Positions 35,032-62,931 of a stretch of 64,000 bases of DNA are shown here, one piece after another (the stretch's first letter is position 1; every line of letters begins with the position of its first letter). The position numbers and the translations under genes were made by a program. A model generated the notes under the pieces. The model worked only from the letters and a program-made list of their open reading frames with translations. It was not told the origin of the DNA and did not search any database. The stretch comes from an uncultured Candidatus Saccharibacteria bacterium (lineage in GTDB: Bacteria; Patescibacteriota; Minisyncoccia; Phycocordibacterales; Phycocordibacteraceae): positions 2,050 to 66,049 of the forward strand of contig CAZUBJ010000001.1 in assembly GCA_964618705.1 (NCBI GenBank). The letters run 5' to 3'.

Positions 35032-35042
35032 TTATTTAGCGT

Positions 35043-38000
35043 ATGGCACGAACCCCGGGTGAGAATCCTCCACGACCAGTTACTAGCCTAACTGGAGAAA
35101 CAGGTAAAGAACTAGTCAAGGACGTGCCAGAGTCTAGTGTTATACCCCAATCCACTCCAGCTTTACCAATTACGGCTAAAGGCGACAAACTCGTTGTAAC
35201 GGTTACTCGTCCGAAGGGAGCGGCGGAAGCTGACACAGCGAAGACGCGACGCGGCACAAGCGGCGGCAAGAAAGACTTGCCACGTCAGCGCGGGAAGAAG
35301 AAACTGGTAATAGCAGAGGGATTGCCAGATCAGGAGCCACTAGTCTTAGGTGACACTATATCAGAACAGGAAGTTGTCATGGGGGCCGCCAAACAATCAT
35401 TCTTGGGCGGTGTTGCTAAGAAGATCAGCGGAAAGAAGCTTCCTAAATACAGTGAAGAGCAGCTCGCGGTGCGCGAACAGCTTAGAACGGCTAAAGAAAG
35501 CACAGAAGGCGTTTCTTTGAAGGATGAATCTGACGCTACCCTCATTTCACTGCGAGACAGAGATCCTGAGCCAGAGAGTATGCCCGCTATGCGCACTACA
35601 CACAACACTCCCATGAGTGAGATATTCGGTAACGCTCCTGTGAACCCGCTCTCACCAGACGTTAACCTTGGAGAAGTTAAAGATGAGCTTAGAAGGCAGA
35701 TTACCGATGAGCAGGCACGGCTAGAGACTGAAGGGAACACGGCAGCAGAGCCACCCGCAAGGAGGAAGGAGACTGCAAAAGAAGTTAAGGAGCGCCTTGC
35801 GCGCAAGGCTGGAGGAGAAAAAGCAAACGCAGAATATCTACAGAAGGACGCGGAGCTCGGTGCCGCAGAACTTGATCGAAAGAATGCGTACTTTGCAGCG
35901 CTCGTGGAATTCCAGAAGAGCCGCTCTATGGGGGATGCTCTTTCGGAGCGACTTGGTGCCAAGTCTGCTGACAAAGTAGAAATGACCGAAGAACTAAAGG
36001 CACTGAAGAAGGAATGGGTACAGTCGAGTAAGGTGCGCGCCAAGAACAGGTTTGATAGTGTGCTGGCTCGTCGCGAAGGTCGCGGTGGTGAGGAGCGACA
36101 GGCTAGAGATACTGAAGCAGTTCTGAGGCGATTTGAGCGTCGTTATGTGCTTCGCGAGGCAGTATTTAAAACCTCCCAGGAGGAAGCTTCTGTGCGAGCA
36201 CGGGCATTAAGTGAGCGCGATAGCCACATTGTCGAGAAGACAGTAAATGGCTTCGCAAATCACTCACTCGTAAAGAAGTGGGGTTCCAAAGCACTACTAG
36301 GTCTCACGACAGTGGGTGTTGGTGGCGGATTGGTTGGCGCCGCATTTACGGTTGGTGCGGGTGCTGTCTTGCCAATACCGTTAGCGATTATTCTTGCCGG
36401 TAGTACCGTGTCTGCTGGGCTCCGTATCCGTGCTGAGCTGCTGAAAGATAAGACTCAGGATCTTGCTGAAAAGGCAAAAGACGCAACAGGAGAAGATAAA
36501 CGAAATATTCTTGACGAAGTAAGGAAGGCACAAGCCAGTCAAGAGAAAGCTCAGAAATGGGCATCACGCCTTACTCTCTCCGGCTGGGCTGGTGGAGCTG
36601 CGAAGTGGTTTACAAGGGATGTGGTCCAGAAGGCAACACGTGACTCAGCAACTCGCAAGGACGCACTTGGTAATATTGGCGGACGAGTAGATGTTGACTG
36701 GAATAGTCAGGATGACTTTGAGCTGCTACGAGAAGAGATTGACGCAGCCACTGCACGCGTGCAACAGGCTGATGTACACCTAGGGTACGCAACTACGGTG
36801 GGTAGTATAGCTGGAGGTGCTGCGCTCGGAGCCGGTGTTGGGTACGCATACTCACACGCAGACGATGTTGTGCGGGCAGCCTCGCCAGTCGTTGATGCTG
36901 GTATCGACAAGGCCGGCGACGCCTTCGATTCTGCAAAGGAATGGACGGGTGGCGCCTCTCACTCAGCAAAGGAGTGGCTAGGCGACCATATTCCTGGACA
37001 GCACGACACCGACGCGGCACCATCCGGCGCGTTGAAAGCCGAGGTTGATAAGGGAGCGCCAGCAGGTGGGGGCGATGCTCCTGCAGCAAAGGCAGACACT
37101 GCGCCTGTAGAAGCGAAAGTCGACACTGCCCCTGCTGCTAAGGTTGATACTGACACTGCGAAAGCTGACGCTGCTCCTGCAGCGAAAGCAGATGTCGTGC
37201 CTGCTCCGGCTGTGCCTAAGGTGGAAGCAACCCCTACTGCTCCAGACGGACTTATGGCAGGTGTTGAGGTTAAGCCAGGACAGGGATTTGGAGAAATGAT
37301 TGTGGCGCTTCGCGGACAGATTCCGGATGATATTCAGAATCCTTCACCTGCGCTTGAGCATGTACTAAACAGCAATGCAAACGCGCTCACGCACGAGTTA
37401 GAAGTTGCTATGGATGGCAAGAGTCTTGTAATGCAACCGGGTGACAAATTCTTTGTCGACAACGACCAGAATATTTGGTTCCAGCAGGTAGGAGAGAAGC
37501 AGCCACACTTGGCGTTTGAGAACGTGACACCGTCGCCAGAGCATCCAGACGGATACGTAGCGCACCCCATTGATGGGAAGATGATGGCAGATCCGGTTCT
37601 CCCTACTCCAAAAGTGGTTGCGGAATCAGTACCAACAACACCGGGCGCTGCCTCTGACATTGTTATCACATCAGGAAACGAAGACATTACTGTGGGTGAC
37701 GTGACCATCTCGCAGGGTGGAGGAATTGTTGACCCATCGCTAGTGTCTACTGGCCCAGAGCAGCTCGTGGTTAACCCAGTTGATTCAGGTCAGGACGTTA
37801 AGCCACTCGTGCAGCCGGAGAAACTAGATACCACCATACCAGCGACCGATGCGCAGGCTCCTGCAGAGGCTCCCAAGGCTGATGCGCCAGCACCTGCGCC
37901 TGAAGTTCAGGCTCCGAAGTTAGAGATTGTGGGCACTGCACATCCGTTTGCAGATCCTGCCGCTGGTCAGGACCTTAATCCGAACGGTGTGGACTTAAAT

Positions 38001-38303
38001 AAGCCCCAGATTCTTGTGAATGAGGGAAGGGTCTGGGCTCACGGTACAAATAATGTAGATAGCTACAATCGTGCAGTTGAGGAATCGCTACGACTAGCAA
38101 AGTTGCCTGGCGCAGCGTCAACGGACGTGTACTTTGTGGTTGAGGGCGTGAATCCTGATACCGGCCAAGCTGAGCTGGTGGTCAGAAAACTTAGCACACC
38201 GCCAGATTCTGTTACCCCGCTTGTTGCGCAATTTGGCCCCGGATCAAAACCTGTCGCTGATCTGCCAGACGCCAGCAAATTTACTCTTCCGACAAAGCGC
38301 TAA
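35043..38303 (+). CDS. Giant membrane protein (1086 aa): coiled-coil N-terminal half, central TM helices, Ala/Pro/Asp-rich repeats and a C-terminal globular region
   Basis: TM and Gly-zipper segments include LLGLTTVGVGGGLVGAAFTVGAGAVLPIPLAIILAGSTV and GYATTVGSIAGGAALGAGVGYAY. Repeats include AKADTAPVEAKVDTAPAAKVDTDTAKADAAPAAKAD. It starts 11 nt after the ATPase gene. Confidence 0.5.
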   Translation: MARTPGENPPRPVTSLTGETGKELVKDVPESSVIPQSTPALPITAKGDKLVVTVTRPKGAAEADTAKTRRGTSGGKKDLPRQRGKKKLVIAEGLPDQEPLVLGDTISEQEVVMGAAKQSFLGGVAKKISGKKLPKYSEEQLAVREQLRTAKESTEGVSLKDESDATLISLRDRDPEPESMPAMRTTHNTPMSEIFGNAPVNPLSPDVNLGEVKDELRRQITDEQARLETEGNTAAEPPARRKETAKEVKERLARKAGGEKANAEYLQKDAELGAAELDRKNAYFAALVEFQKSRSMGDALSERLGAKSADKVEMTEELKALKKEWVQSSKVRAKNRFDSVLARREGRGGEERQARDTEAVLRRFERRYVLREAVFKTSQEEASVRARALSERDSHIVEKTVNGFANHSLVKKWGSKALLGLTTVGVGGGLVGAAFTVGAGAVLPIPLAIILAGSTVSAGLRIRAELLKDKTQDLAEKAKDATGEDKRNILDEVRKAQASQEKAQKWASRLTLSGWAGGAAKWFTRDVVQKATRDSATRKDALGNIGGRVDVDWNSQDDFELLREEIDAATARVQQADVHLGYATTVGSIAGGAALGAGVGYAYSHADDVVRAASPVVDAGIDKAGDAFDSAKEWTGGASHSAKEWLGDHIPGQHDTDAAPSGALKAEVDKGAPAGGGDAPAAKADTAPVEAKVDTAPAAKVDTDTAKADAAPAAKADVVPAPAVPKVEATPTAPDGLMAGVEVKPGQGFGEMIVALRGQIPDDIQNPSPALEHVLNSNANALTHELEVAMDGKSLVMQPGDKFFVDNDQNIWFQQVGEKQPHLAFENVTPSPEHPDGYVAHPIDGKMMADPVLPTPKVVAESVPTTPGAASDIVITSGNEDITVGDVTISQGGGIVDPSLVSTGPEQLVVNPVDSGQDVKPLVQPEKLDTTIPATDAQAPAEAPKADAPAPAPEVQAPKLEIVGTAHPFADPAAGQDLNPNGVDLNKPQILVNEGRVWAHGTNNVDSYNRAVEESLRLAKLPGAASTDVYFVVEGVNPDTGQAELVVRKLSTPPDSVTPLVAQFGPGSKPVADLPDASKFTLPTKR

Positions 38304-53616: not shown

Positions 53617-53689
53617 GGGCCGTTAGCTCAGTTGGTAGAGCATCTCATTTTCAATGAGAGGGTCGCAGGTTCGAATCCTGTACGGTCCA
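53617..53689 (+). tRNA. tRNA with anticodon TTC (Glu by anticodon)
   Basis: It folds as acceptor GGGCCGT/ACGGTCC, D-arm GCTCAGTTGGTAGAGC, anticodon arm TCTCA-TTTTCAA-TGAGA, T-arm GCAGG-TTCGAAT-CCTGT and discriminator A. The isotype is inferred from the anticodon only. Confidence 0.7.
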
Positions 53690-53819
53690 CACCATAAAGT
53701 TCGAACATGTCACGGCGGCCTTTTGGTCGCTTTTGACGGTTTTTGAGCGCAGGATCAGCAGCAGGGAGTTGTCCAGGCGGTGTCCGCTCGTACGGTGTTA
53801 GTAGTGATACAGTATTGGT

Positions 53820-54239
53820 GTGAATCCATTCGAGCGACCAACACAACCTAAACCTTCCAACAGCGCAGAGGTCGCCCTTCAAGGCGTTGCAAGCCAGCAC
53901 GATTCCCTCGCGCGTGAGCACGCGTATCAAGCGCAATATGAAAGTGAGATTCTCCCGCTTCTGCGCGACGCTGAGAGGCTTCAGATCAATTTGGGGGTGG
54001 CTGAGCAGAAGCTTCGCGGCGCAGAGCTCAAGAGCCCAAATCAACCGGAAATACTTGCGCTTCAGAAGCAACTCCGCGCTCTACGGGGAGAACCCGAGCT
54101 AGACACTGTTCCTGGCAACGATAGTGCACTCACTGCTGCTCAATTGGAGTACGACACGGCCAAGACCGCACTGGAGGCTACGAGGAACGAGATAGCCGAG
54201 CGAACTGCTGAGCTACGTCGCGCCCACGGGCTCAGTTAG
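53820..54239 (+). CDS. Hypothetical coiled-coil protein (139 aa)
   Basis: The ORF lies downstream of the tRNA at about 55% GC. I recognise no family. Confidence 0.3.
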   Translation: MNPFERPTQPKPSNSAEVALQGVASQHDSLAREHAYQAQYESEILPLLRDAERLQINLGVAEQKLRGAELKSPNQPEILALQKQLRALRGEPELDTVPGNDSALTAAQLEYDTAKTALEATRNEIAERTAELRRAHGLS

Positions 54240-54559
54240 ATGTCTTTCTCGTGCTGCTGCTTCATCCTTGTCAACTCAGAGGCCCTTGCAATTCCGACCT
54301 AACTTGCGAGAATTGAAGAAGAACGACTGACCTTGAGATTTCTCCCGAGGCCAGACGTTCGCAGGTCTTTGCGCTCCAAATGTCAGTCGACTTTCGGCAC
54401 CGGTGCCGAGCGTGCTCGGCAGTCTGACGATGCGCCCAAATGCGACTAAACAGAACTACGAGCTTGTCCATGTGGACAATTCTCCTTGGTCGGCAGCCTC
54501 CCCTTAGGTTGGTACCCTCGGAGACTTAGTCTCCGGTTGGTGGGGTTGCTGATTAGGAT

Positions 54560-54593
54560 GGGCCTCCGCTTTCGAGCGGGGGCCCAGTTTTTT
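54560..54593 (+). terminator. Strong rho-independent terminator (GGGCCTCCGCT-TTCG-AGCGGGGGCCC plus AGTTTTTTG)
   Basis: An 11-bp stem is followed by a T6 tract. There is no confident CDS upstream between 54240 and 54560. Confidence 0.6.
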
Positions 54594-54982
54594 GTGCCGC
54601 CCGATTCGAAAAGGAGGGGTGGTGGACTGCAGCTGGCCTCACTGTCTTTCACTTAGGCGTTCCACGCTTCTCACGCTCCTCTCGGATGGCGATGCGCAGC
54701 AAGACTCGTACAAATTCATACAGTCGTTCGCGCGCCTCGACACGCTCAACAAGTGTGGCGTCAGGCATGTATTTGTAGATGAGGTGGGCTCCTGGTGGGC
54801 AAATGCACTTTGGTGTTGTTGTCATACCGCCGCAGTATGCAGAATTGCCTACCAGGCCGCTAGTCGGTCATCAGTGTCTTCATACTTCAGACTCTGTTCT
54901 ATCGAGGACAAAAGGGACTTCATGTCTGGACTTTGGGGAGGTCGAACCTGGGCCCGAGCTGGTCCACAAACGACATTTGAAA

Positions 54983-55007
54983 GCCCCGAAAGGGGCTTTT
55001 GTCGTTT
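54983..55007 (+). terminator. Hairpin terminator (GCCCCGAAAGGGGC plus TTTTGTCGTTT) nested inside a longer palindrome (AAACGACA...TGTCGTTT)
   Basis: A perfect GNRA-type hairpin (GAAA loop) with a T-tract sits in a non-coding stretch. Confidence 0.5.
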
Positions 55008-55160
55008 GCGGGCCGTAGCAGAGTGTCTGCACACTCTGCGGCAGGATTCGAAAGTGGTTGAGTATGTCGCAACGAGTTCGAAGCTTTGTGAGAACGACGT
55101 GAGACACGAGACCCACACCGTTCCTGTAAGGAAAGGATCCTGTACGGTCGAAATTCAAAA

Positions 55161-55185
55161 AGGCCCGGACATTCATCCGGGCCTT
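55161..55185 (-). terminator. Rho-independent terminator for the ECF sigma gene (AGGCCCGGA-N7-TCCGGGCCT plus a TTTTTGAATTT tail on the minus strand)
   Basis: A 9-bp stem lies 19 nt downstream of the sigma stop on the minus strand. Confidence 0.6.
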
Positions 55186-55203
55186 GCGCATGTGCGCGAG
55201 TGA

Positions 55204-55683
55204 TTATTGCGTCGCCGCTATGAGCTGTTCGCGTCCGAGTCGGAAGTAGCCCTTCACGGTGCCGTGCGGTCGCTTCAGAATTGCCGCAATTTCCGAGTCC
55301 GAGAACCCGATGCTTCCGAGCAGAATCGCCTTTCGGCGATCAGACTGCATGTTCGCCACGTACGCGAGCACTTCTGTGAGCTCTACCTGCACTTCCTGGA
55401 CCGCTTCGGTGCGGTCGCTGTTCAAGCGCAGTCGGGAGAGCATCCGCCCCTCCGTCCTTTCCTTGCGGATGGAGTCAATGAACAAGCGCTTCATAATCAC
55501 CTGTGCCCAGGGCAAGAGCTCTCGGGTAGGGTCGTATGCGCTCCGTTGATCGAGCAGTTTGGCGACGGTGGTCTGCACCAGGTCTTCTGCGCGTTCACGG
55601 TGGCGGGTCAGCTTCTTCGCGTAGTTGCGCAGTGCGCTATAGGTCGCCAGTATCCGGCGACCATACTCAACTTCGTTTTGCAT
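55204..55683 (-). CDS. ECF (sigma-70 family) RNA polymerase sigma factor
   Basis: Region 2 is DLVQTTVAKLL...WAQVIMKRLFIDSIRKE and region 4 is the HTH SDSEIAAILKRPHGTVKGYFRLGREQL. I chose the start at ATG 55683 with an AGGAGG SD 5 nt upstream. Confidence 0.75.
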   Translation of the reverse strand: MQNEVEYGRRILATYSALRNYAKKLTRHRERAEDLVQTTVAKLLDQRSAYDPTRELLPWAQVIMKRLFIDSIRKERTEGRMLSRLRLNSDRTEAVQEVQVELTEVLAYVANMQSDRRKAILLGSIGFSDSEIAAILKRPHGTVKGYFRLGREQLIAATQ

Positions 55684-55770
55684 GGTTGCCTCCTTCTGGC
55701 TATCCACAACCTACAGCACATATTCTGGAGACGCCAGAGCCCCACTGTGCGCAGTGCTACTATTACCCCA

Positions 55771-57357
55771 ATGCTTCGGCGCATCATTGCCACTATAGAG
55801 TCCTCATCACTCACCCTGTATTCATTCATGGGTGCAGTGGCGGGAGTCGTCTTTCTCCGTTTCTTCCTAGAATCCTTTAGCGCCCGCACCCCTACGGGTT
55901 TTGTCGCAAGCGACGCGCCCACACTCGTTCACTACGGACTCTTCTTCCTGGCAGCGCTCCTATTGCATACACTCATCGTTGCGTTTGTGACGCGCGAGAA
56001 GATGCTCACTGTGCTCAAAATCAGCACGTACGCACTCCCGCTCATCCTGATTGCTCCGATCATCGACATATTCATGGGTGGGGGAACGATGGCGTATTTG
56101 ATACAGCCACTGCCAGAGCTGATTGCAGACTTCCTCACATTCTTTGGTCCACTACAGGGCTCAGGTGCTACGGTGGGTATTCGTATTGAGCTTGCCATAG
56201 TGCTTGCGGGTCTTGGAACTTATATATGGCTCAAGACTGCCAGTGTGTGGCGTACCGCGCTTGGCGTGTTTCTCTCCTATGTGGTGGTGTTTGGCATGGG
56301 CGCATGGCCAAGCCTGGTAGCCATTGCCACTGGCGGCACCGCGCATGTGATGTTCCTGGCAAGTGACTTGAGCAGCTCACTCATTGCACGCTCGTTCCTA
56401 CACCCAAGCGAGGTGTACAGCGGATTCCGTCTTCTTGAGATGTACTTCAGTGCCTACATGGCGCAGAGCATGTTCCTCCTCTCGCTTATCTGTGGCTACT
56501 TTGTACTGCGCTCTATTTCTCCACGCGTGGTGAAAGCAGTGAAGGCGAACATGCGCCCGCTACGTCTACTAAACTATATGGCGCTGGCGACACTGGGCTT
56601 TTTGCTTGCGCTCTACTTCGCTCCTATCACCTGGTCTGTCTACGACGTCATTACGGTGCTTGTCGCGTTTTCCTGTATCAAGCTTCTGTGGGTCTTTGCG
56701 GTCACCGCAAACGATTTGGGAGACGAAGATATCGACCGTATTTCAAATGCTTCCCGCCCTCTTATTACGGGTGCGATGAGTCGAACCGAAATGATCCAGG
56801 TCGCCGTAGGAGCTCTTATATTGGTGATTTTGGGAGGTCTCTCGCTTGGGTCCTATTCGCTGTTCTATCTCCTTATATATGTAGCCATCGTTGTGGTGTA
56901 CTCGTTCCCGCCACTGCGCCTGCGCCGATTCCCTGTGGTGTCGCACATGCTCATTGGCTTTGCGTGCCTGTGCATGGTCCTCATGGGATTCTTTCTCGCT
57001 TCACCCGCGCGCGAACTTGCGGCATTCCCACCATACGCTGCGCTTCTCGTTGTCATTATTTTTACGCTTGGACTTAACTTGAAAGATTTGAAGGACGAAG
57101 CGGGAGACCGAGCCGCAGGTGTGGTCACCATAGCGACGCTACTTGGTGCGAAGCGCGCACAGTATGTGATTGCTGCATTACTGTTTGTGGCAGCATTGCT
57201 TGTGCCATTTATGCTGCAGGAGCCGTCACTTTGGATTCCGTGCATTGTAAGCGGCGCCATTGTTGCCGCTGGAGTAGCGAAAGGGAAGCGGGAAAAGTTT
57301 GTTTTTGTAATCTATTTCTTATTTGTGCTGTACCTGATATTCAGACTGGTGGCATAG
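55771..57357 (+). CDS. Polytopic membrane protein: N-terminal ~240-aa multi-TM domain fused to a C-terminal UbiA-family prenyltransferase-like domain
   Basis: The C-terminal half carries UbiA Asp-rich motifs NDLGDEDIDRI (NDxxDxxxD) and KDLKDEAGDRAAG (DxxDxxxD). It has more than 12 TM helices. The track ORF start (55207) overlaps the sigma gene on the opposite strand, so I chose ATG 55771. Confidence 0.55.
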   Translation: MLRRIIATIESSSLTLYSFMGAVAGVVFLRFFLESFSARTPTGFVASDAPTLVHYGLFFLAALLLHTLIVAFVTREKMLTVLKISTYALPLILIAPIIDIFMGGGTMAYLIQPLPELIADFLTFFGPLQGSGATVGIRIELAIVLAGLGTYIWLKTASVWRTALGVFLSYVVVFGMGAWPSLVAIATGGTAHVMFLASDLSSSLIARSFLHPSEVYSGFRLLEMYFSAYMAQSMFLLSLICGYFVLRSISPRVVKAVKANMRPLRLLNYMALATLGFLLALYFAPITWSVYDVITVLVAFSCIKLLWVFAVTANDLGDEDIDRISNASRPLITGAMSRTEMIQVAVGALILVILGGLSLGSYSLFYLLIYVAIVVVYSFPPLRLRRFPVVSHMLIGFACLCMVLMGFFLASPARELAAFPPYAALLVVIIFTLGLNLKDLKDEAGDRAAGVVTIATLLGAKRAQYVIAALLFVAALLVPFMLQEPSLWIPCIVSGAIVAAGVAKGKREKFVFVIYFLFVLYLIFRLVA

Positions 57358-57435
57358 GCTGTTCTAGTTCGTTCAGTATATACGGCGCATAATTTGCTAT
57401 AGACAGCCAAAGCAGGGGGCGTACACTTATTTGCA

Positions 57436-60400
57436 ATGACACTGGGGGTGTCCGGGCGTTGGGAACATTACACGCAGAACATTTTTAGTATGACTATTTC
57501 ACAGAAGCTAGCGAGCTTCGCTCGCCGCGCATCGTTTGCATTTATTGCAGCTGCGCTTTTATTCACCAGTACTGCGGACATCGCGTTTGCGGTTGCTCCT
57601 CTAGCAGTTAATGACAACTACAGCGCAACAATGGACGTTCAGTTGTCTGTTAATGCATTGGACGGTGTCCTAACTAACGACTCAGACGATGTCGGACCGA
57701 TTGCTGCAATAGCTGTTGTGGCAGGGTCAACTACTGCGGGAGGCTCGTACGACTTAAGTACTGACGGGTCGTTTGTGTACACGCCGCCTTCTGGGTATAG
57801 AGGTTCAGATACTTTCACCTATGAAGTGAACGACATTGCCCTTGAAGGCCCCTCCTCCGCCACTGTTGAAATTCTCGTGGAAGACCCGGCTGTCGCAAAT
57901 GTAGCAACTCTCTCGGAGTTGAATGCTGCTCTAGGAAATCCTGCAAAAACCACTATCAATCTCACCGCGGACATAAGCGGTATTACTGACACTGTGGTTC
58001 TGAATCGTGCATTGACGCTAAATGGAGGAGGAAATTCTCTTTCCTTTACTGGTCTAGAAGCAGCCACCCCAAACGACGAGGGAGTAACTATCGTGGCTCC
58101 AGCAACGATCAATAATCTAGTTGTGGATGCTGGCCTTGTAGTACCTGCTACTTGGGTTGGTACCTACGCTGTTCAGGTATACAACTCAACTGCGACACTA
58201 CATAACGTCACAGCGACAGGTGCAAACGGAGGTATCATGGTGAACAACTCAAACGTGACGCTCACAGGCACCGTAGACGTCTCTGGAAACGGATTTGGTG
58301 GCATTGAGTCTTCGAACGGTTCTGTTCTTACTGTTTCGTCTGCTTCATTCACGAATACTTCGGAAGTGTATGGCAAGCCTACTCTCTGGGAGGACGGACT
58401 AACGGGCACCACTGTTGTAAATTACGGTTCGATTACAAGAATTGAGAAGGGCTCTCAGTATCAGTTTTACCTTTCCGCAGACAACGCCAAAATTCCTCAG
58501 ACGATTACCTTCGCTGACCCTACAGATCTCACCTACGGTGATTTCGCAACATTCTCTGTAGCCCCAACTGCAGACTCAAGCCTTCTTGTTTCTATCGGAA
58601 CCAGTGGTGCCTGTAGCAAGGCCGGGTTCCTTGTGACTGTTACTGGCGCTGGTACCTGTACCATTACTGCGACACAGACCGGAGACGCAATCTACGCCGC
58701 AGCCACTCCTGTAGTGCAGTCAGTGACTATCAGCCCCCGCGCAGTGACTGTCACCGCCGCGAGTGTTACAAAGGAATACGACACTACGACTTCCTCTGCA
58801 GGTACCCCAACTTTGACCGCAGGCTCCCTCGCGTTCTTTGAATCAGCAACATACAGCCAGACATACGTGTCTTCTGATGTTGGGGTAGGAATTGTAATTG
58901 AATCAGCTTCTTCGCTCGATTCCAATGCAAACTACGCCGTTACTCATGTAGACGGTTCAGGCGATATCACTCCAGCATCACTCACTGCAACAGCAGTAGC
59001 GGCTGACAAGGAGTACGATGGCAATACAACAACAACCGCTGCTGTATCTGTGACTCCTCTTGCTGGGGATACGGTGACTGCAACATATACAACAGCTATC
59101 TTTGACACTAAAGATGTTGGGGTGGGAAAGACGGTCACGGTGTCTGGTATTGCGCTTGATGGAGCGGACAAAGACAACTATGCGCTTACGATCAACTCTG
59201 CTACGGACGGAGCAGATGTTACAGCTAAAGCGCTTACGGTAGATGTAACGGTAGACAACAAGGTGTACGACAACACCACGGCAGCTACCATTACTGGATA
59301 TACCCCAGTGGGACTTGTCGGGCTTGAGACCGTCACCATTAACGGCGGAGTCGCAACGTTCACCGACAACGAGAACGTCGGGGCGGGAAAGCCAGTATCA
59401 ATCACAGGTCTAAACCTCGTGGCTAATGCAGTGTCTGCGAACTACTCATTCACAACAACTGATACCACCACGGCAAACATCACCACTCGTGCTATCACGG
59501 TGACCGCCGTGACTGCTACAAAGGTGTATGACGGACACACGACTTCAGCAGGGACCCCGGCTATCACTGGTCTCGGACTCGCGACGGGCGATACTTCAGG
59601 ATTCTCACAGGTATATGACACTGCGAACGCAGGAACAGGAAAGTCCCTTTCAGTTGCCGGTGCAGTGAATGATGGCAACGGTGGAAACAACTACGCCGTA
59701 ACTCCAGTCTCAGTAAGTACTGGGGAGATTACCAAGGCACCACTCACTATCACGGCGCAGGACAAGACTAAGGTGTATGGGGACGCCAATCCTGTGGCTA
59801 CTGCAAGCTACTCTGGATTCGTTAACAGTGAGAACGAGTCAATACTCGATGTCGCGGTTACGCTCGTGGTTGTCGCTAACAACCAGACTGACGTAAACAA
59901 TCACCCAATCACGGCGTTTGGTGCCGCTGACGGGAACTATGCCATCACGCACGTGAATGGAAACTTGGAAATTACCAAGCGCCCACTCACCACGACGGTT
60001 GTCGCAACAGACAAGGAATACGACGGCACCACTGACGCTGATGTAGCACTTACCTTAAACGGCGTACTCTTCGCAGATGTGGTGACGGTAAGCAATACCG
60101 ACGCAGACTTTGACACAAAGAATGTGGGCACAGGCAAGACGGTGACTGCTACGGGTGTAGCTATTGCGGGTGCTGACGCAGGGAATTACAGCATCGCGGC
60201 CACTGCTACTGACACTGCAGACATCACTGCAGCACCACTTTCAGTGACTGCTAACGCGGCCACAAAAGTGTATGGAGATGCTGACCCAGTATTCACCTAC
60301 ACTGCAACAGGACTTGTGTCAGGCGACAGCTTCACAGGCGCGCTATCTCGTGACGCTGGAGAGGATGTAAGCGACTACGCGATGGAAATCGGTTCCCTGT

Positions 60401-61587
60401 CAGCTGGTTCGAACTACGGCACCATCGTATTCACGCCAGCAGACCTAAGCATCACCAAGGCCCCGCTCACTATCACCGCTGACGACAAGACTCGAGTGTA
60501 TGGAAACGCTAATCCAACTTTCACTCTTACATACAGCGCTTTCCAGTTCAGTGACGACGAGAATAATCTGGACACCGCTGTTGAGGGTTATACCGTAGCT
60601 GGGCAGTTTGACGACGCCGGTACGTACAGCATTGATGTTGTGGAAGACGGTGGGGGATTTGGTCCATCAGCATTGGTTGAAGACGACAACTACGAGCTCA
60701 TGCTTGTAAGCGGAACACTCACTATCGAGCGTGCGGACCAGGAAATTACCTTTGATCCGCTCGCGGACATGGAATTCGGAGATGCAGACTTTGACGTAGC
60801 TGCTACATCGGATTCCGATGAAGACGTAGTGTTCAGTGCAGCTGGCGCATGTACGGTATCTGGAGCAACGGTTCACCTTACTACCAAGGGCACCTGCACC
60901 ATCACTGCCTCCGTTCCAGCAAGCACTAACTACAACGCAGCAGTGTCTGTAGACCAGAGCTTTGAAGTGGCCGACGTTGCTGTGCCAGTAATCACTCTTG
61001 CTGGTTCTGCGTCACTCACCCTGACGACAGGAGATGGCTACGTTGATGCGGGAGCAACCGCAACTGACGACGTGGACGGAGACATCACAGCAAGCATTGT
61101 GACGGTGAATCCGGTAAACATGGATCTCGCAGGCACCTACACCATCACATACAACGTGACGGATGGAGCCGGGAACATTGGAGCAGAAGCGACACGCACC
61201 GTAGTGGTAGAACGACGCAGTAGCGGTGGTGGTGGAGGCTCGTCTCGCAACACAGAGACTGTGGCCACTGGTGGTCGCGTGCTCGGTGCTGCCCTCTACT
61301 TCTTTGCAACTGACCTCACTGTCGGCTCTACGGGAGCAGATGTTATGGAGCTTCAGAAGGTTCTTATTGAGGCTGGCTACCTAAAGATTGCAGCTCCAAC
61401 TGGCTACTTTGGTCCAATGACGCAGGCAGCGGTAAAGCTGTACCAGGCGGCAAAGGGAATCCAGACAACGGGATACGTTGGTCCACTTACGCGCGCAGCG
61501 CTTAACCAGGGAACAGCACCAAAGACCGCAGAGGAGCAGATTGCCGATTTGATGGCGCAACTTAAGGCGCTTCAGGCCCAGCAGTAA
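57436..61587 (+). CDS. Giant cell-surface protein (1383 aa): signal peptide, cadherin/Ig-like domain, right-handed beta-helix region, ~8 MBG (YDG/KVYGD) repeats, DUF5011 Ig-like domain, Gly-rich linker and a C-terminal peptidoglycan-binding (PG_binding_1) domain
   Basis: The signal peptide is MTISQKLASFARRASFAFIAAALLFTSTADIAFA, and an alternative ATG lies at 57490. The cadherin/Ig-like motif is VNDNYSATMDVQL..VLTNDSD. Repeated KVYGDANP, KEYDGTT and KVYDGHT blocks are present. The DUF5011-like domain is TATDDVDGDIT. The C-terminal PG-binding domain is VMELQKVLIEAGYL...GYFGPMTQAAVKLYQ. Confidence 0.7.
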   Translation: MTLGVSGRWEHYTQNIFSMTISQKLASFARRASFAFIAAALLFTSTADIAFAVAPLAVNDNYSATMDVQLSVNALDGVLTNDSDDVGPIAAIAVVAGSTTAGGSYDLSTDGSFVYTPPSGYRGSDTFTYEVNDIALEGPSSATVEILVEDPAVANVATLSELNAALGNPAKTTINLTADISGITDTVVLNRALTLNGGGNSLSFTGLEAATPNDEGVTIVAPATINNLVVDAGLVVPATWVGTYAVQVYNSTATLHNVTATGANGGIMVNNSNVTLTGTVDVSGNGFGGIESSNGSVLTVSSASFTNTSEVYGKPTLWEDGLTGTTVVNYGSITRIEKGSQYQFYLSADNAKIPQTITFADPTDLTYGDFATFSVAPTADSSLLVSIGTSGACSKAGFLVTVTGAGTCTITATQTGDAIYAAATPVVQSVTISPRAVTVTAASVTKEYDTTTSSAGTPTLTAGSLAFFESATYSQTYVSSDVGVGIVIESASSLDSNANYAVTHVDGSGDITPASLTATAVAADKEYDGNTTTTAAVSVTPLAGDTVTATYTTAIFDTKDVGVGKTVTVSGIALDGADKDNYALTINSATDGADVTAKALTVDVTVDNKVYDNTTAATITGYTPVGLVGLETVTINGGVATFTDNENVGAGKPVSITGLNLVANAVSANYSFTTTDTTTANITTRAITVTAVTATKVYDGHTTSAGTPAITGLGLATGDTSGFSQVYDTANAGTGKSLSVAGAVNDGNGGNNYAVTPVSVSTGEITKAPLTITAQDKTKVYGDANPVATASYSGFVNSENESILDVAVTLVVVANNQTDVNNHPITAFGAADGNYAITHVNGNLEITKRPLTTTVVATDKEYDGTTDADVALTLNGVLFADVVTVSNTDADFDTKNVGTGKTVTATGVAIAGADAGNYSIAATATDTADITAAPLSVTANAATKVYGDADPVFTYTATGLVSGDSFTGALSRDAGEDVSDYAMEIGSLSAGSNYGTIVFTPADLSITKAPLTITADDKTRVYGNANPTFTLTYSAFQFSDDENNLDTAVEGYTVAGQFDDAGTYSIDVVEDGGGFGPSALVEDDNYELMLVSGTLTIERADQEITFDPLADMEFGDADFDVAATSDSDEDVVFSAAGACTVSGATVHLTTKGTCTITASVPASTNYNAAVSVDQSFEVADVAVPVITLAGSASLTLTTGDGYVDAGATATDDVDGDITASIVTVNPVNMDLAGTYTITYNVTDGAGNIGAEATRTVVVERRSSGGGGGSSRNTETVATGGRVLGAALYFFATDLTVGSTGADVMELQKVLIEAGYLKIAAPTGYFGPMTQAAVKLYQAAKGIQTTGYVGPLTRAALNQGTAPKTAEEQIADLMAQLKALQAQQ

Positions 61588-61633
61588 TTACCTGCATGTT
61601 AGTAGTAGCAAAGCGCCCGCGAAAGCGGGCGCT

Positions 61634-62134
61634 TTGTGCGTGCTACCATTTATGTATATGACCACATTGCGTACCGTAGGTATCTTTCTCATCTGTATCG
61701 CAGCGTCGCTTCTAGCGGGCTTCTGGGGCTCTACAGGCACCGTAGGAAGCATTGCTGGCTGGTACTCCATAATCAACAAACCGTTCTGGACGCCACCGAA
61801 CTGGGTGTTCATGCCGGTATGGACACTGCTCTTTATCCTTATGGGCACAGCAGCTGCGCTGGTGTGGAAGAGTGGAAAGAAGGATGCGTGGAAGCCGGTG
61901 CTATTCTTCTTCGCTCACCTAGTGGTGAACACGTACTGGTCTATCGTATTCTTTACGAACCAGGACCCGGTCACGGCACTCTACGTCATTGCTGTTCTGT
62001 GGCTCATGATTGTCGGCATGATGGTGTGGTTCTGGCGCTACTCACGCGTCGCCACGTACTTGCTCGTGCCGTACATTCTGTGGGTGAGCTACGCCACCAC
62101 GCTTAACATCGGCATTGTCCTTCTAAATCAATAA
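61634..62134 (+). CDS. tspO: TspO/MBR family tryptophan-rich sensory protein
   Basis: It has five TM helices and is Trp-rich (GWYSIINKPFWTPPNWVFMPVWTLLFILMG). Its size is typical of the family. Confidence 0.75.
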   Translation: MCVLPFMYMTTLRTVGIFLICIAASLLAGFWGSTGTVGSIAGWYSIINKPFWTPPNWVFMPVWTLLFILMGTAAALVWKSGKKDAWKPVLFFFAHLVVNTYWSIVFFTNQDPVTALYVIAVLWLMIVGMMVWFWRYSRVATYLLVPYILWVSYATTLNIGIVLLNQ

Positions 62135-62136
62135 TT

Positions 62137-62541
62137 ATGCGCTACGTACAACTCTTTGCTCTGACTCTTCCTATTGCCCTCGTTCTTGATGTTATCTGGA
62201 TTGTAGGAATCGCTATGCCGTTCTACCGTGCAGAGCTTGGTGGGCTACTCGCAACTGACGTGGTGTGGCCGGCTGCTATTGCGTTCTATGTGTTCTACAT
62301 AATCGCGCTCATTGTGTTTGTGCTAAAGCCAGCAATCATTGCGCACTCATTGAAGAAGGCCGTACTTCTCGGGGCTTTTCTTGGCTTCACGGCGTACATG
62401 ACGTACGACCTCACCAACCTCGCTACCACTGAGGGCTGGTCGCTCGCGGTTGCGTTGGTGGATATGCTCTGGGGCACCGTCTTTACCGCGGTGCTAGCTG
62501 CTATCTCGTACACCTTCGCTACAAAGTGGTTGAAGATGTAG
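62137..62541 (+). CDS. DUF2177 family small membrane protein
   Basis: It is 134 aa with four TM helices and the YMTYDLTNLAT motif. It lies 2 nt after tspO. Confidence 0.5.
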   Translation: MRYVQLFALTLPIALVLDVIWIVGIAMPFYRAELGGLLATDVVWPAAIAFYVFYIIALIVFVLKPAIIAHSLKKAVLLGAFLGFTAYMTYDLTNLATTEGWSLAVALVDMLWGTVFTAVLAAISYTFATKWLKM

Positions 62542-62616: not shown

Positions 62617-62931
62617 TTAGAGGGCGGAGCGCCGTCCGTAGGTTTCGGGATCCCAGGTGATCCGTCCGCCAGTCAGACTCGTCTCGCGCGAAGCTGGGGG
62701 AGCGGCGACGCGCGCAGGGCGGACCTTGGGGCCGCGCATGGCATCGACCTGCCGGAACAGACGCTGACGCAGTTCGTCGACAGTGATGCCGCCGTCACTT
62801 GCCCGTGACTGAAACTCGGCGGTGCGACGGCTCTTGTTCAGCCGCTTGCGAATGCTGGCCTTCTTCTGGCCGGGATGCGTCCGCGAGATTCGAGTGGCGG
62901 GCTTTTTGGGCAGAGTGCGCTGAGCAAACAT
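62617..62931 (-). CDS. Small highly basic protein (104 aa, Arg/Lys-rich) in a GC-rich islet
   Basis: The ORF runs at about 63% GC. A strong terminator lies directly downstream on the minus strand. I recognise no family. Confidence 0.35.
   Translation of the reverse strand: MFAQRTLPKKPATRISRTHPGQKKASIRKRLNKSRRTAEFQSRASDGGITVDELRQRLFRQVDAMRGPKVRPARVAAPPASRETSLTGGRITWDPETYGRRSAL

What the first reader, a model, noticed from the sequence alone, without database searches (positions are those of the whole stretch)
55204..62541. Cell-envelope module: divergent ECF sigma, a membrane protein fused to a UbiA-like prenyltransferase, a 1383-aa MBG-repeat surface protein with a PG-binding anchor, TspO and DUF2177
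An ECF sigma gene on the minus strand, with an SD and its own terminator, is divergent from a plus-strand gene of about 530 aa. That gene's C-terminal half carries both UbiA Asp-rich motifs (NDLGDEDID and DLKDEAGD). It is fused to an unrelated N-terminal polytopic domain.

Next comes a 4.1-kb gene for a secreted protein. Its domains run cadherin/Ig-like, beta-helix, about eight MBG (YDG/KVYGD) repeats, DUF5011 Ig-like, a Gly linker and a C-terminal PG_binding_1 domain. This is a giant fibre anchored to peptidoglycan. TspO and a DUF2177 membrane protein follow, 2 nt apart from each other.

The arrangement suggests an ECF-controlled surface adhesin together with lipid-linked glycoconjugate or prenyl-carrier biosynthesis. 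A UbiA-like fusion of this kind next to an MBG adhesin is not a textbook arrangement.
Basis: partly seen in the sequence, partly recalled or inferred. Interest (0 to 1): 0.5.

Follow-up and report, generated by a model that had tools for sequence, protein, structure and literature searches.

The report
Mosaic envelope locus, not one module

Summary
Observation confirmed. Window 55204-62541 encodes five genes: an ECF-type sigma (159 aa), a 528-aa membrane protein with a true UbiA domain, a 1383-aa MBG/YDG-repeat protein ending in PG_binding_1, TspO, and DUF2177.

Interpretation mostly not supported.
- The UbiA-fusion and TspO genes start with the TGnTAnnnT, leaderless-type promoter that housekeeping genes of this window also use. 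No AAC/CGT ECF motif is present.
- In 80 related genome loci, no sigma, MBG, PG-binding or DUF2177 gene lies beside the fusion gene. RsmA does in 64 of 80, with UvrD and a type-IV-secretion-like cluster.
- In two close relatives the same sigma is directly divergent from TspO-DUF2177. UbiA-fusion plus MBG gene therefore behave as a two-gene presence/absence cassette.
- DUF2177 also sits in sigmaE-ChrR clusters of Alphaproteobacteria, so TspO-DUF2177 is the likelier partner of the sigma.

The fusion belongs to a large family (1370 cluster representatives) in which the N-terminal six-helix domain is essentially always joined to UbiA. That domain has no Pfam or PDB relative. Its conserved polar residues are predicted to face outward, while the UbiA Asp motifs face the cytoplasm. 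The substrate is unknown. The fusion is a new variant of a known kind, of moderate interest.

The parts
55160..55185 (-). Terminator-like hairpin after the sigma gene
   Evidence: 11-pair stem with 7 GC pairs, followed by a TTTGAATTT tail.
55204..55683 (-). ECF-type (group IV) sigma factor, 159 aa, with an AGGAGG Shine-Dalgarno sequence
   Evidence: Only six close homologs exist (79-100% identity); the next is at 39%.
55755..55763 (+). TGcTACTAT extended -10, 7 nt before the fusion ATG (probably a leaderless mRNA)
   Evidence: It lies within the only upstream stretch conserved in all four close loci. The genome-wide pattern is shown.
55771..56556 (+). N-terminal six-helix membrane domain of the fusion (aa 1-262). 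Unknown fold; invariant R30, E34, H54, P96, D99, F121, G136, Y170, P180.
56557..57357 (+). UbiA-superfamily prenyltransferase domain (aa 263-528, nine helices). Asp-rich motif 1 is at nt 56710-56736 and motif 2 at nt 57085-57108.
57400..57427 (+). Sigma-70-like promoter TAGACA-16-TACACT upstream of the big gene
   Evidence: The ATG at 57436 follows 8 nt after the -10 element.
57436..61587 (+). Secreted MBG/YDG-repeat fibre with a C-terminal PG_binding_1 domain, 1383 aa (alternative start 57490). Layout in nt: signal peptide 57490-57591; Big_9/Cadherin 57595-57873; pectate-lyase-like beta-helix 57895-58485; eight YDG/MBG repeats 58735-60735; Ig-like 60736-61209; Gly linker; PG_binding_1 61330-61503; coiled tail.
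   Evidence: Orthologs are 1260, 350 and 328 aa long.
61613..61632 (+). GC-rich hairpin (GCGCCCGC-GAAA-GCGGGCGC) between the big gene and TspO
   Evidence: Sequence. Conserved in L004 and L008.
61641..61649 (+). TGcTACCAT extended -10, 8 nt before the TspO ATG at 61658
61658..62134 (+). TspO/MBR family protein (158 aa from ATG 61658; the ORF opens at 61634)
   Evidence: Pfam E=4.5e-42.
62137..62541 (+). DUF2177 membrane protein, 134 aa, 2 nt after TspO
   Evidence: Pfam E=1.2e-36. Paired with TspO in all six related loci examined.
55720..61640 (+). Approximate extent of the two-gene (fusion + MBG) presence/absence cassette between sigma and TspO
   Evidence: The L093 and L094 spacers equal the left part of the sigma-fusion spacer joined to the right part of the big-TspO spacer.

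Best explanation
The region is a mosaic of four transcription units in a Patescibacteria (Paceibacteria-like) chromosome.

1. A lineage-restricted ECF-type sigma gene.

2 and 3. A two-gene cassette present in some close relatives and absent in others.
- Its first gene encodes a 15-helix membrane enzyme. A C-terminal UbiA-fold domain with intact Asp-rich, Mg-diphosphate-binding motifs faces the cytoplasm and should transfer a prenyl group from a prenyl diphosphate to an unknown acceptor. The N-terminal six-helix domain, which is essentially always fused to it, carries all its conserved polar residues near the outer leaflet. I infer that it binds, translocates or further processes the prenylated lipid on the outside.
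- Its second gene encodes a length-variable, secreted MBG/YDG-repeat fibre held on the wall by a PG_binding_1 domain.

4. A TspO-DUF2177 operon. This is the constant neighbour of the sigma gene in relatives. It resembles the sigmaE-ChrR-DUF2177 clusters of Alphaproteobacteria, whose sigmaE-ChrR system controls the singlet-oxygen response in Rhodobacter sphaeroides.

Shown: the gene and domain identities, the family distribution, the contexts and the promoter pattern. Inferred: the membrane topology, the outward-facing site, any regulation by the sigma factor, and the substrate.
For: - Domain identities.
- N-domain profile: 1370 cluster representatives. Of the best 150, 127 are at least 500 aa, meaning fused. 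Three of the short hits were read: two run on into the first UbiA helix and one breaks off inside the N-domain, so they are fragments.
- Topology: helices; K/R-rich loops at aa 75-78, 155-161 and 250-265; and the established N-in topology of UbiA. Together these place R30, E34, H54, D99, Y109 and R138 at the outer side.
- Relatives with an extra C-terminal CrtC-lipocalin or TPR domain put a lipid- or ligand-binding module on that same side.
- Usual context of the family: RsmA in 64 of 80 loci, UvrD 54, TrbL-like 44, PrgI 31, TraC 27; sigma, MBG, PG-binding and DUF2177 all 0.
- Cassette behaviour.
- Housekeeping-type leaderless promoters.
- DUF2177 next to sigmaE-ChrR.
Against: - No experiment or substrate-specific signature identifies the acceptor. 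All NCBIfam UbiA-subfamily matches fall far below their cutoffs.
- The outward-facing site rests on a predicted model and the positive-inside rule, not on coordinates that I could inspect.
- Within the clade the fusion and MBG genes always travel together (4 of 4 loci). A functional link between those two is therefore not excluded.
- An ECF promoter too divergent from the AAC/CGT consensus would have been missed.
- The window sigma is only 27-30% identical to sigmaE of the ChrR clusters, and no anti-sigma gene is adjacent.
Confidence: 0.6

Rival explanations
1. One reading: one ECF-controlled envelope module. The divergent sigma factor would drive the fusion enzyme, which makes a prenyl carrier or lipid-linked glycoconjugate, together with the adhesin, TspO and DUF2177.
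For: - Sigma is divergent from the fusion gene in the window, L004 and L095, and one gene away in L008.
- All five genes are membrane or envelope related.
Against: - No ECF-type promoter. The promoters are of the housekeeping extended -10, leaderless type.
- A hairpin lies between the big gene and TspO, and the big gene has its own promoter-like site.
- Co-occurrence is 0 of 80 outside the clade.
- Sigma occurs without the fusion or MBG gene in L093 and L094, and the fusion and MBG genes occur without sigma in L009.
- No glycosyltransferase is present in the region.
Confidence: 0.12
2. The fusion enzyme and the MBG fibre form a functional pair independent of the sigma factor. For example, the enzyme could make a prenylated lipid that anchors, modifies or helps export the fibre.
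For: - The two genes are adjacent in 4 of 4 clade members (window, L004, L008, L009).
- They are missing together in L093 and L094, so they behave as one cassette.
Against: - Outside the clade the gene downstream of the fusion gene is an unrelated 270-aa membrane-anchored protein with no Pfam match, and no MBG or PG-binding gene is nearby (0 of 80).
- The fibre has its own signal peptide, its own PG_binding_1 anchor and its own promoter-like site.
- The fibre varies from 328 to 1383 aa while the enzyme stays at 70-92% identity.
Confidence: 0.2
3. The fusion is a DGGGP-synthase-like ether-lipid enzyme that attaches isoprenoid chains to a glycerol phosphate backbone. This would let a lipid-auxotrophic CPR cell build or remodel membrane lipids.
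For: - NCBIfam hits fall in the DGGGPS / chlorophyll synthase / homogentisate phytyltransferase group.
- DGGGPS-like genes have been reported in a Parcubacteria genome (PMC7852524).
Against: - All subfamily scores are far below their cutoffs (43-68 bits against 226-353).
- The contexts that were annotated with Pfam list no GGGP synthase or G1P dehydrogenase. The 80 genome loci were not screened for these two genes.
- The obligate N-domain is absent from known DGGGP synthases.
Confidence: 0.12
4. The fusion is a polyprenyl-phosphate phosphoribosyltransferase (DPPR-synthase-like), with the N-domain acting as an outward-facing transferase or flippase for a lipid-linked sugar.
For: - The conserved outward-facing acidic and basic residues in the N-domain resemble, in logic only, enzymes that act on lipid-linked sugars at the outer face (this is inference).
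Against: - The N-domain shows no GT-C or flippase similarity.
Confidence: 0.08

Closest known systems
UbiA-superfamily intramembrane prenyltransferases (AfUbiA 4tq3, ApUbiA 4od4, DGGGP synthase 6m31, UBIAD1, chlorophyll synthase)
   Different: An obligate extra N-terminal six-helix domain with no known relative. The protein reaches no curated subfamily cutoff. Within what I sampled, the family occurs mostly in organisms labelled Patescibacteria. From general knowledge, not tested here, such organisms are thought to lack quinone, haem and chlorophyll pathways.
SigmaE-ChrR singlet-oxygen response clusters of Alphaproteobacteria (Rhodobacter sphaeroides RpoE-ChrR and the rhizobial equivalents seen here)
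   Same: An ECF sigma gene lies next to a DUF2177 gene. In Rhizobium daejeonense and Ensifer adhaerens the order is sigma-ChrR-DUF2177 on one strand. In Phyllobacterium, DUF2177 lies beside DUF1295-hydrolase-ChrR-sigma. In close relatives of this window the sigma is directly divergent from TspO-DUF2177.
   Different: No ChrR-type anti-sigma gene, and no cfa, DUF1365 or photolyase gene here. The sigma is only 27-30% identical. The TspO promoter looks housekeeping-type.
Stress-sigma control of tspO in Pseudomonas fluorescens (AlgU and RpoH; PMC4585239)
   Same: A precedent for an ECF sigma being required for tspO expression. I take this from the paper's title and abstract, as listed.
   Different: No regulatory data exist for this organism. 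Adjacency is the only evidence here.
MBG/YDG-repeat surface adhesins with cell-wall binding domains
   Same: A tandem array of about 80-aa YDG/MBG_2 repeats with Ig-like and beta-helix modules and a PG_binding_1 domain.
   Different: The anchor is a C-terminal non-covalent PG_binding_1 domain plus a short coiled tail. The orthologous locus ranges from 328 to 1383 aa among close relatives.

Membership tests
UbiA prenyltransferase superfamily | Pfam PF01040 score above the gathering cutoff | tested here: met
   95.4 bits against a cutoff of 34.2, E=4.4e-27.
UbiA prenyltransferase superfamily | Two Asp-rich motifs (NDxxDxxxD and DxxxGD-like) that are conserved | tested here: met
   N314, D318, D322 and D442, G445, D446 are invariant in 35 sequences. 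They align to the motifs of 6m31.
UbiA prenyltransferase superfamily | Nine-helix UbiA fold | tested here: met
Specific UbiA subfamilies (DGGGP synthase, ChlG/BchG, homogentisate phytyltransferase, and others) | NCBIfam equivalog or subfamily score at or above the curated cutoff | tested here: not met
   Best hits are 68.1 bits against 226 (HPT), 54.1 against 313 (ChlG) and 43.4 against 296 (DGGGPS).
Prenyltransferase catalytic activity and substrate | Mg-dependent prenyl transfer to a defined acceptor | not testable with these tools
   Requires biochemistry.
ECF (group IV) sigma factors | Only the sigma2 and sigma4 regions in a small protein, with family models above their cutoffs | tested here: met
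   159 aa. Sigma70_r2 48.9 bits against 24. Sigma70_ECF 22.3 against 21.1 over aa 23-163 of the 167-aa translation scanned. TIGR02937 49.7 against 42.9 over aa 13-154.
ECF (group IV) sigma factors | A cognate anti-sigma factor encoded next to the sigma gene | tested here: not met
   No anti-sigma-like gene flanks sigma in the window, L004, L008, L093 or L094. This is not obligatory for all ECF groups.
ECF (group IV) sigma factors | An ECF-type AAC(-35)/CGT(-10) promoter upstream of itself or of neighbouring target genes | tested here: not met
   No match on either strand of 55640-55800, and none on the + strand upstream of the big gene or TspO.
SigmaE-ChrR singlet-oxygen system | A ChrR anti-sigma gene, plus cfa, DUF1365, FAD-oxidoreductase or photolyase genes nearby | tested here: not met
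   Absent from the Pfam and ORF annotation of the window's flanks and of the relatives. Only the link between sigma and DUF2177 is shared.
TspO/MBR | Pfam PF03073 score above cutoff, five helices | tested here: met
   143.7 bits against 24. The hydropathy scan gives five segments, two of which overlap.
DUF2177 | Pfam PF09945 score above cutoff | tested here: met
   126 bits against 26.9.
MBG/YDG-repeat, peptidoglycan-binding surface protein | YDG, MBG_2 and PG_binding_1 domains above cutoff, plus a signal peptide | tested here: met
   160.2, 151.8 and 59.5 bits. Hydrophobic segment at aa 35-53 followed by AFA.
   No such domain in the five genes. The N-domain shows no GT-C or flippase similarity.

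The most novel reading that the evidence does not exclude
The N-domain/UbiA fusion is a bifunctional envelope enzyme found almost entirely in candidate-phyla-radiation bacteria. It would make a prenylated lipid at the inner face and hand it to an outward-facing site of a new fold. Its persistent linkage to the UvrD/RsmA/type-IV-secretion-like neighbourhood would then reflect a role in building the cell surface used for host attachment or DNA uptake. In this lineage a divergent copy has been captured, together with a hypervariable wall-anchored fibre, as a strain-variable cassette.
Probability: 0.15. Interest if true: 0.7.

Novelty: new variant of a known kind. Interest (0 to 1): 0.4.

Why it matters
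From general knowledge (not tested here), Patescibacteria are thought to lack quinone, haem, chlorophyll and most lipid synthesis. A widespread, conserved UbiA-type prenyltransferase in them therefore has no obvious product.

A family of more than a thousand sequence clusters with an obligate, structurally unassigned partner domain is a concrete target for working out how these ultra-small, probably host-dependent bacteria build or modify their envelope.

The finding also corrects a tempting over-reading: neighbouring envelope genes here do not form a regulon. It adds comparative support for a recurrent link between ECF sigma genes and DUF2177 (with TspO in this lineage), which could help assign a function to DUF2177.

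Tried and rejected
- Metagenome scans for more close-clade loci. The single-protein query found nothing. The clade alignment found only two distant short contigs.
- The afdb50 fold library was unavailable.
- Tandem-repeat search in the big gene found no recent DNA-level repeats.
- Rfam on the whole window found only three tRNAs.
- The fusion protein against phage genomes gave no match.
- The context of the Edwardsbacteria TPR-bearing homolog was uninformative.
- I checked my recollection that DUF2177 belongs to the R. sphaeroides RSP1087-1091 operon. The gene sizes in PMC7380195 (245, 186 and 402 aa) do not fit a protein of about 130 aa, so I dropped it.
- Rejected: that the N-domain occurs on its own. 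The short hits that I read are truncated fusion proteins.
- Rejected: that the UbiA motifs are chance matches.
Full report
**1. Observation**

- **Sigma, 55204-55683(-).** 159 aa from an ATG preceded by AGGAGG. It passes Sigma70_r2, Sigma70_ECF and TIGR02937 (sigma70-ECF). It is followed by an 11-pair hairpin at 55185-55160.
- **Large gene, 57436-61587(+).** 1383 aa, or 1365 aa from the ATG at 57490. It has a signal peptide, Big_9/Cadherin_5, a pectate-lyase-like beta-helix, five YDG and three MBG_2 domains, two Ig-like modules, a Gly linker and PG_binding_1. The eight repeats start at aa 446, 525, 609, 696, 779, 860, 944 and 1020.
- **TspO and DUF2177.** They follow the large gene and lie 2 nt apart.

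**2. The fusion protein is a member of a large, unnamed family**

- A word-indexed search found 38 full-length homologs of about 515-555 aa, with a few longer variants. Those that carry a source name are called Paceibacterota or Edwardsbacteria. Only three exceed 70% identity; the rest are at most 38%.
- A profile of the N-terminal 262 aa, searched against 1.84 billion cluster representatives, found 1370 proteins at E<=1e-3 and 1088 at E<=1e-10. Of the best 150, 127 are at least 500 aa.
- Three of the short hits were read. Two run on into the first UbiA helix and one breaks off inside the N-domain, so they are fragments. The N-domain is thus essentially always fused to UbiA.
- The N-domain has no Pfam match and no PDB relative by sequence profile.
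- NCBIfam places the UbiA half nearest homogentisate phytyltransferase, chlorophyll synthase and DGGGP synthase, but far below every cutoff.

**3. Topology (inference)**

The model gives six helices in the N-domain (aa 16-37, 49-74, 78-101, 135-156, 159-186, 218-249) and nine in the UbiA domain. K/R-rich loops lie at aa 75-78, 155-161 and 250-265. Solved UbiA enzymes have an established N-in, C-out topology with the Asp motifs on the cytoplasmic side. Together these give a 15-helix N-in/C-out protein.

On that topology, all invariant or near-invariant polar residues of the N-domain (R30, E34, H54, D99, Y109, R138) sit at the outer-leaflet ends of helices or in outer loops. The catalytic Asp motifs sit inside.

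Some relatives add a C-terminal, and therefore outside, CrtC-type lipocalin pair or TPR repeats.

This suggests a two-face enzyme: prenyl transfer inside, and binding or processing of the lipid product outside. I could not inspect the coordinates, so this remains a hypothesis.

**4. Comparative context outside the clade**

A scan of 185,579 species genomes returned 178 relatives. The best 80 loci are nearly all Patescibacteria MAGs, at most 39% identical. The tblastn counts of neighbours are below.

| Neighbour | Loci with a match (of 80) |
|---|---|
| Sigma | 0 |
| MBG array | 0 |
| PG-binding tail | 0 |
| DUF2177 | 0 |
| TspO | 1 |
| RsmA | 64 |
| UvrD | 54 |
| TrbL-like | 44 |
| PrgI | 31 |
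| TraC | 27 |

- The fusion gene keeps this UvrD/RsmA/type-IV-secretion-like neighbourhood in several orders and orientations.
- Exceptions include L080, where the fusion gene sits inside the S12-S7-EF-G-EF-Tu operon with TspO 3 kb away.
- No homolog of the RsmA, TrbL-like, PrgI or TraC proteins of locus L001 was found in the 64-kb window.
- The window clade is also more divergent: 33% mean identity to the other family members, against 42% among those others.

**5. Comparative context inside the clade**

- L004 (fusion 90% identical): sigma | fusion - 350-aa MBG/PG_binding protein - TspO - DUF2177 - YceG. A defence island lies upstream of sigma.
- L008 (92%): the same order, with a 1260-aa fibre and one extra gene between sigma and the fusion gene.
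- L009 (71%): fusion - 328-aa fibre - TspO - DUF2177, with no sigma.

The sigma factor has only six close homologs.

In L093 and L094 the sigma proteins are 81% and 79% identical to the window's, and TspO and MltG are 88-93% identical. There the sigma gene is directly divergent from TspO-DUF2177, across 77-96 nt, with no fusion or MBG gene between them. Their spacer equals the left part of the window's sigma-fusion spacer joined to the right part of its big-gene-TspO spacer.

Hence the fusion and fibre genes (about 55720-61640) form a two-gene presence/absence cassette. TspO-DUF2177 is the constant block.

The fibre itself is hypervariable. Its C-terminal anchor is conserved, while the N-terminal part ranges from one MBG domain to the 1383-aa array.

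**6. Promoters**

- The only stretch conserved upstream of the fusion gene in all four close loci is CAGTGCTAC(T/G)AATTAT...ATG. This contains TGcTACTAT, ending 7 nt before the ATG.
- TspO has TGcTACCAT 8 nt before its ATG.
- Across the window, TGnTAnnnT followed 5-9 nt later by the start of an ORF of at least 100 aa occurs at 14 of 71 motif sites, against 1-5 for shifted spacings or scrambled motifs. The 14 include LysRS, Ddl and a histidine kinase.
- These are therefore ordinary housekeeping-type promoters, probably giving leaderless mRNAs.
- No AAC...CGT motif is present.
- The big gene has its own TAGACA-16-TACACT site. A conserved GC hairpin separates it from TspO.

**7. The sigma factor and TspO-DUF2177**

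- tblastn of DUF2177 against plasmid and chromid records found 60 matching records.
- In Rhizobium daejeonense the order is sigma - ChrR anti-sigmaE - DUF2177 on one strand, divergent from FAD-oxidoreductase - DUF1365 - cfa. Ensifer adhaerens has the same order.
- In Phyllobacterium, DUF2177 lies beside DUF1295 - hydrolase - ChrR - sigma, with DUF1365 and photolyase nearby.
- In the literature, a DUF2177 gene is induced by singlet oxygen in a SAK1-dependent way in Chlamydomonas (PMC4067076). DUF2177 neighbours heliorhodopsin genes (bioRxiv 10.1101/2021.02.16.431466). tspO of Pseudomonas fluorescens needs the ECF sigma AlgU (PMC4585239; title and abstract).
- A link between an ECF sigma and (TspO-)DUF2177 is therefore recurrent, and it is the more parsimonious association for this sigma.
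- It rests on adjacency only. The window sigma is just 27-30% identical to those sigmaE proteins, and no ChrR gene is adjacent.

**8. Verdict**

The single-module, ECF-controlled adhesin/glycoconjugate interpretation is not supported.

What remains of interest is the obligate N-domain/UbiA family. It is an uncharacterised and, in the data sampled here, predominantly patescibacterial variant of a known enzyme superfamily. A lesser point is the strain-variable pairing of a divergent copy with a hypervariable wall-anchored fibre.

Noticed in passing
window, whole; e.g. 484, 4388, 14649, 15878, 18908, 21599, 29560, 43457, 52598, 53820, 55771, 61658, 26919(-): Many genes start 5-9 nt after a TGnTAnnnT extended -10 element: 14 of 71 motif sites, against 1-5 in controls. 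This implies widespread leaderless transcription in this genome. It also pins the start codons of the fusion gene (55771), TspO (61658) and Ddl (52598).
   Followed up: partly
window 53617-55203: tRNA-Glu (53617-53690) is followed by about 1.5 kb with only one plausible gene: orf139 at 53820-54239, which has its own TGaTACAGT promoter and no Pfam match. A strong hairpin lies at 54559-54586. In L004 the stretch just upstream of sigma holds a roughly 9-kb defence island (type I R-M, ArdC, SMODS + S_4TM, AAA_21). In L008, between Ddl and sigma, there are other small genes plus an AAA_33 kinase. This looks like a variable island.
   Followed up: partly
window 62617-62931 (-): A small, very basic 104-aa ORF lies between DUF2177 and MltG/YceG. 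It has a tblastn match in L009 (46.5% identity over 101 aa), and small ORFs (96 and 87 aa) are called at the same position in L008 and L093. It has no Pfam match.
   Followed up: partly
window 32290-38303: A VirD4/TraG-like coupling-protein gene (913 aa; DUF87 + TraG-D_C) is followed by a 1086-aa ORF with no Pfam match. No homolog of the TrbL-like, PrgI or TraC proteins of locus L001 was found in the window.
   Followed up: no
L001, L005-L007 and L010-L089: The fusion family stays in the UvrD/RsmA/type-IV-secretion-like neighbourhood, although its order and strand relative to RsmA change: upstream, downstream or inverted. This may reflect a functional link or merely slow synteny decay.
   Followed up: partly
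L080 5796-14483: Here the fusion gene is inserted in the str operon (S12-S7-fusion-EF-G-Sua5-TspO-EF-Tu). This is a second, independent case of the fusion gene and TspO lying within 3 kb of each other.
   Followed up: no
P0162, P0173, P0034: Family variants carry an extra C-terminal, predicted extracytoplasmic, domain: a CrtC lipocalin plus Lipocalin_9 domain, or TPR repeats.
   Followed up: partly
L096, L097, L098 (alphaproteobacterial replicons); L099 (Acetoanaerobium): DUF2177 lies immediately downstream of rpoE-chrR, or beside DUF1295-hydrolase-ChrR-sigma, in three Alphaproteobacteria. In a Clostridia genome it lies about 2 kb from a DUF1295 gene.
   Followed up: partly
window 55755-55763 and 61641-61649: The fusion gene and TspO promoters share GTGCTAC(T/C)A. 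In relatives without the cassette a single copy remains. The cassette may therefore have been gained or lost by recombination at this repeated promoter.
   Followed up: partly
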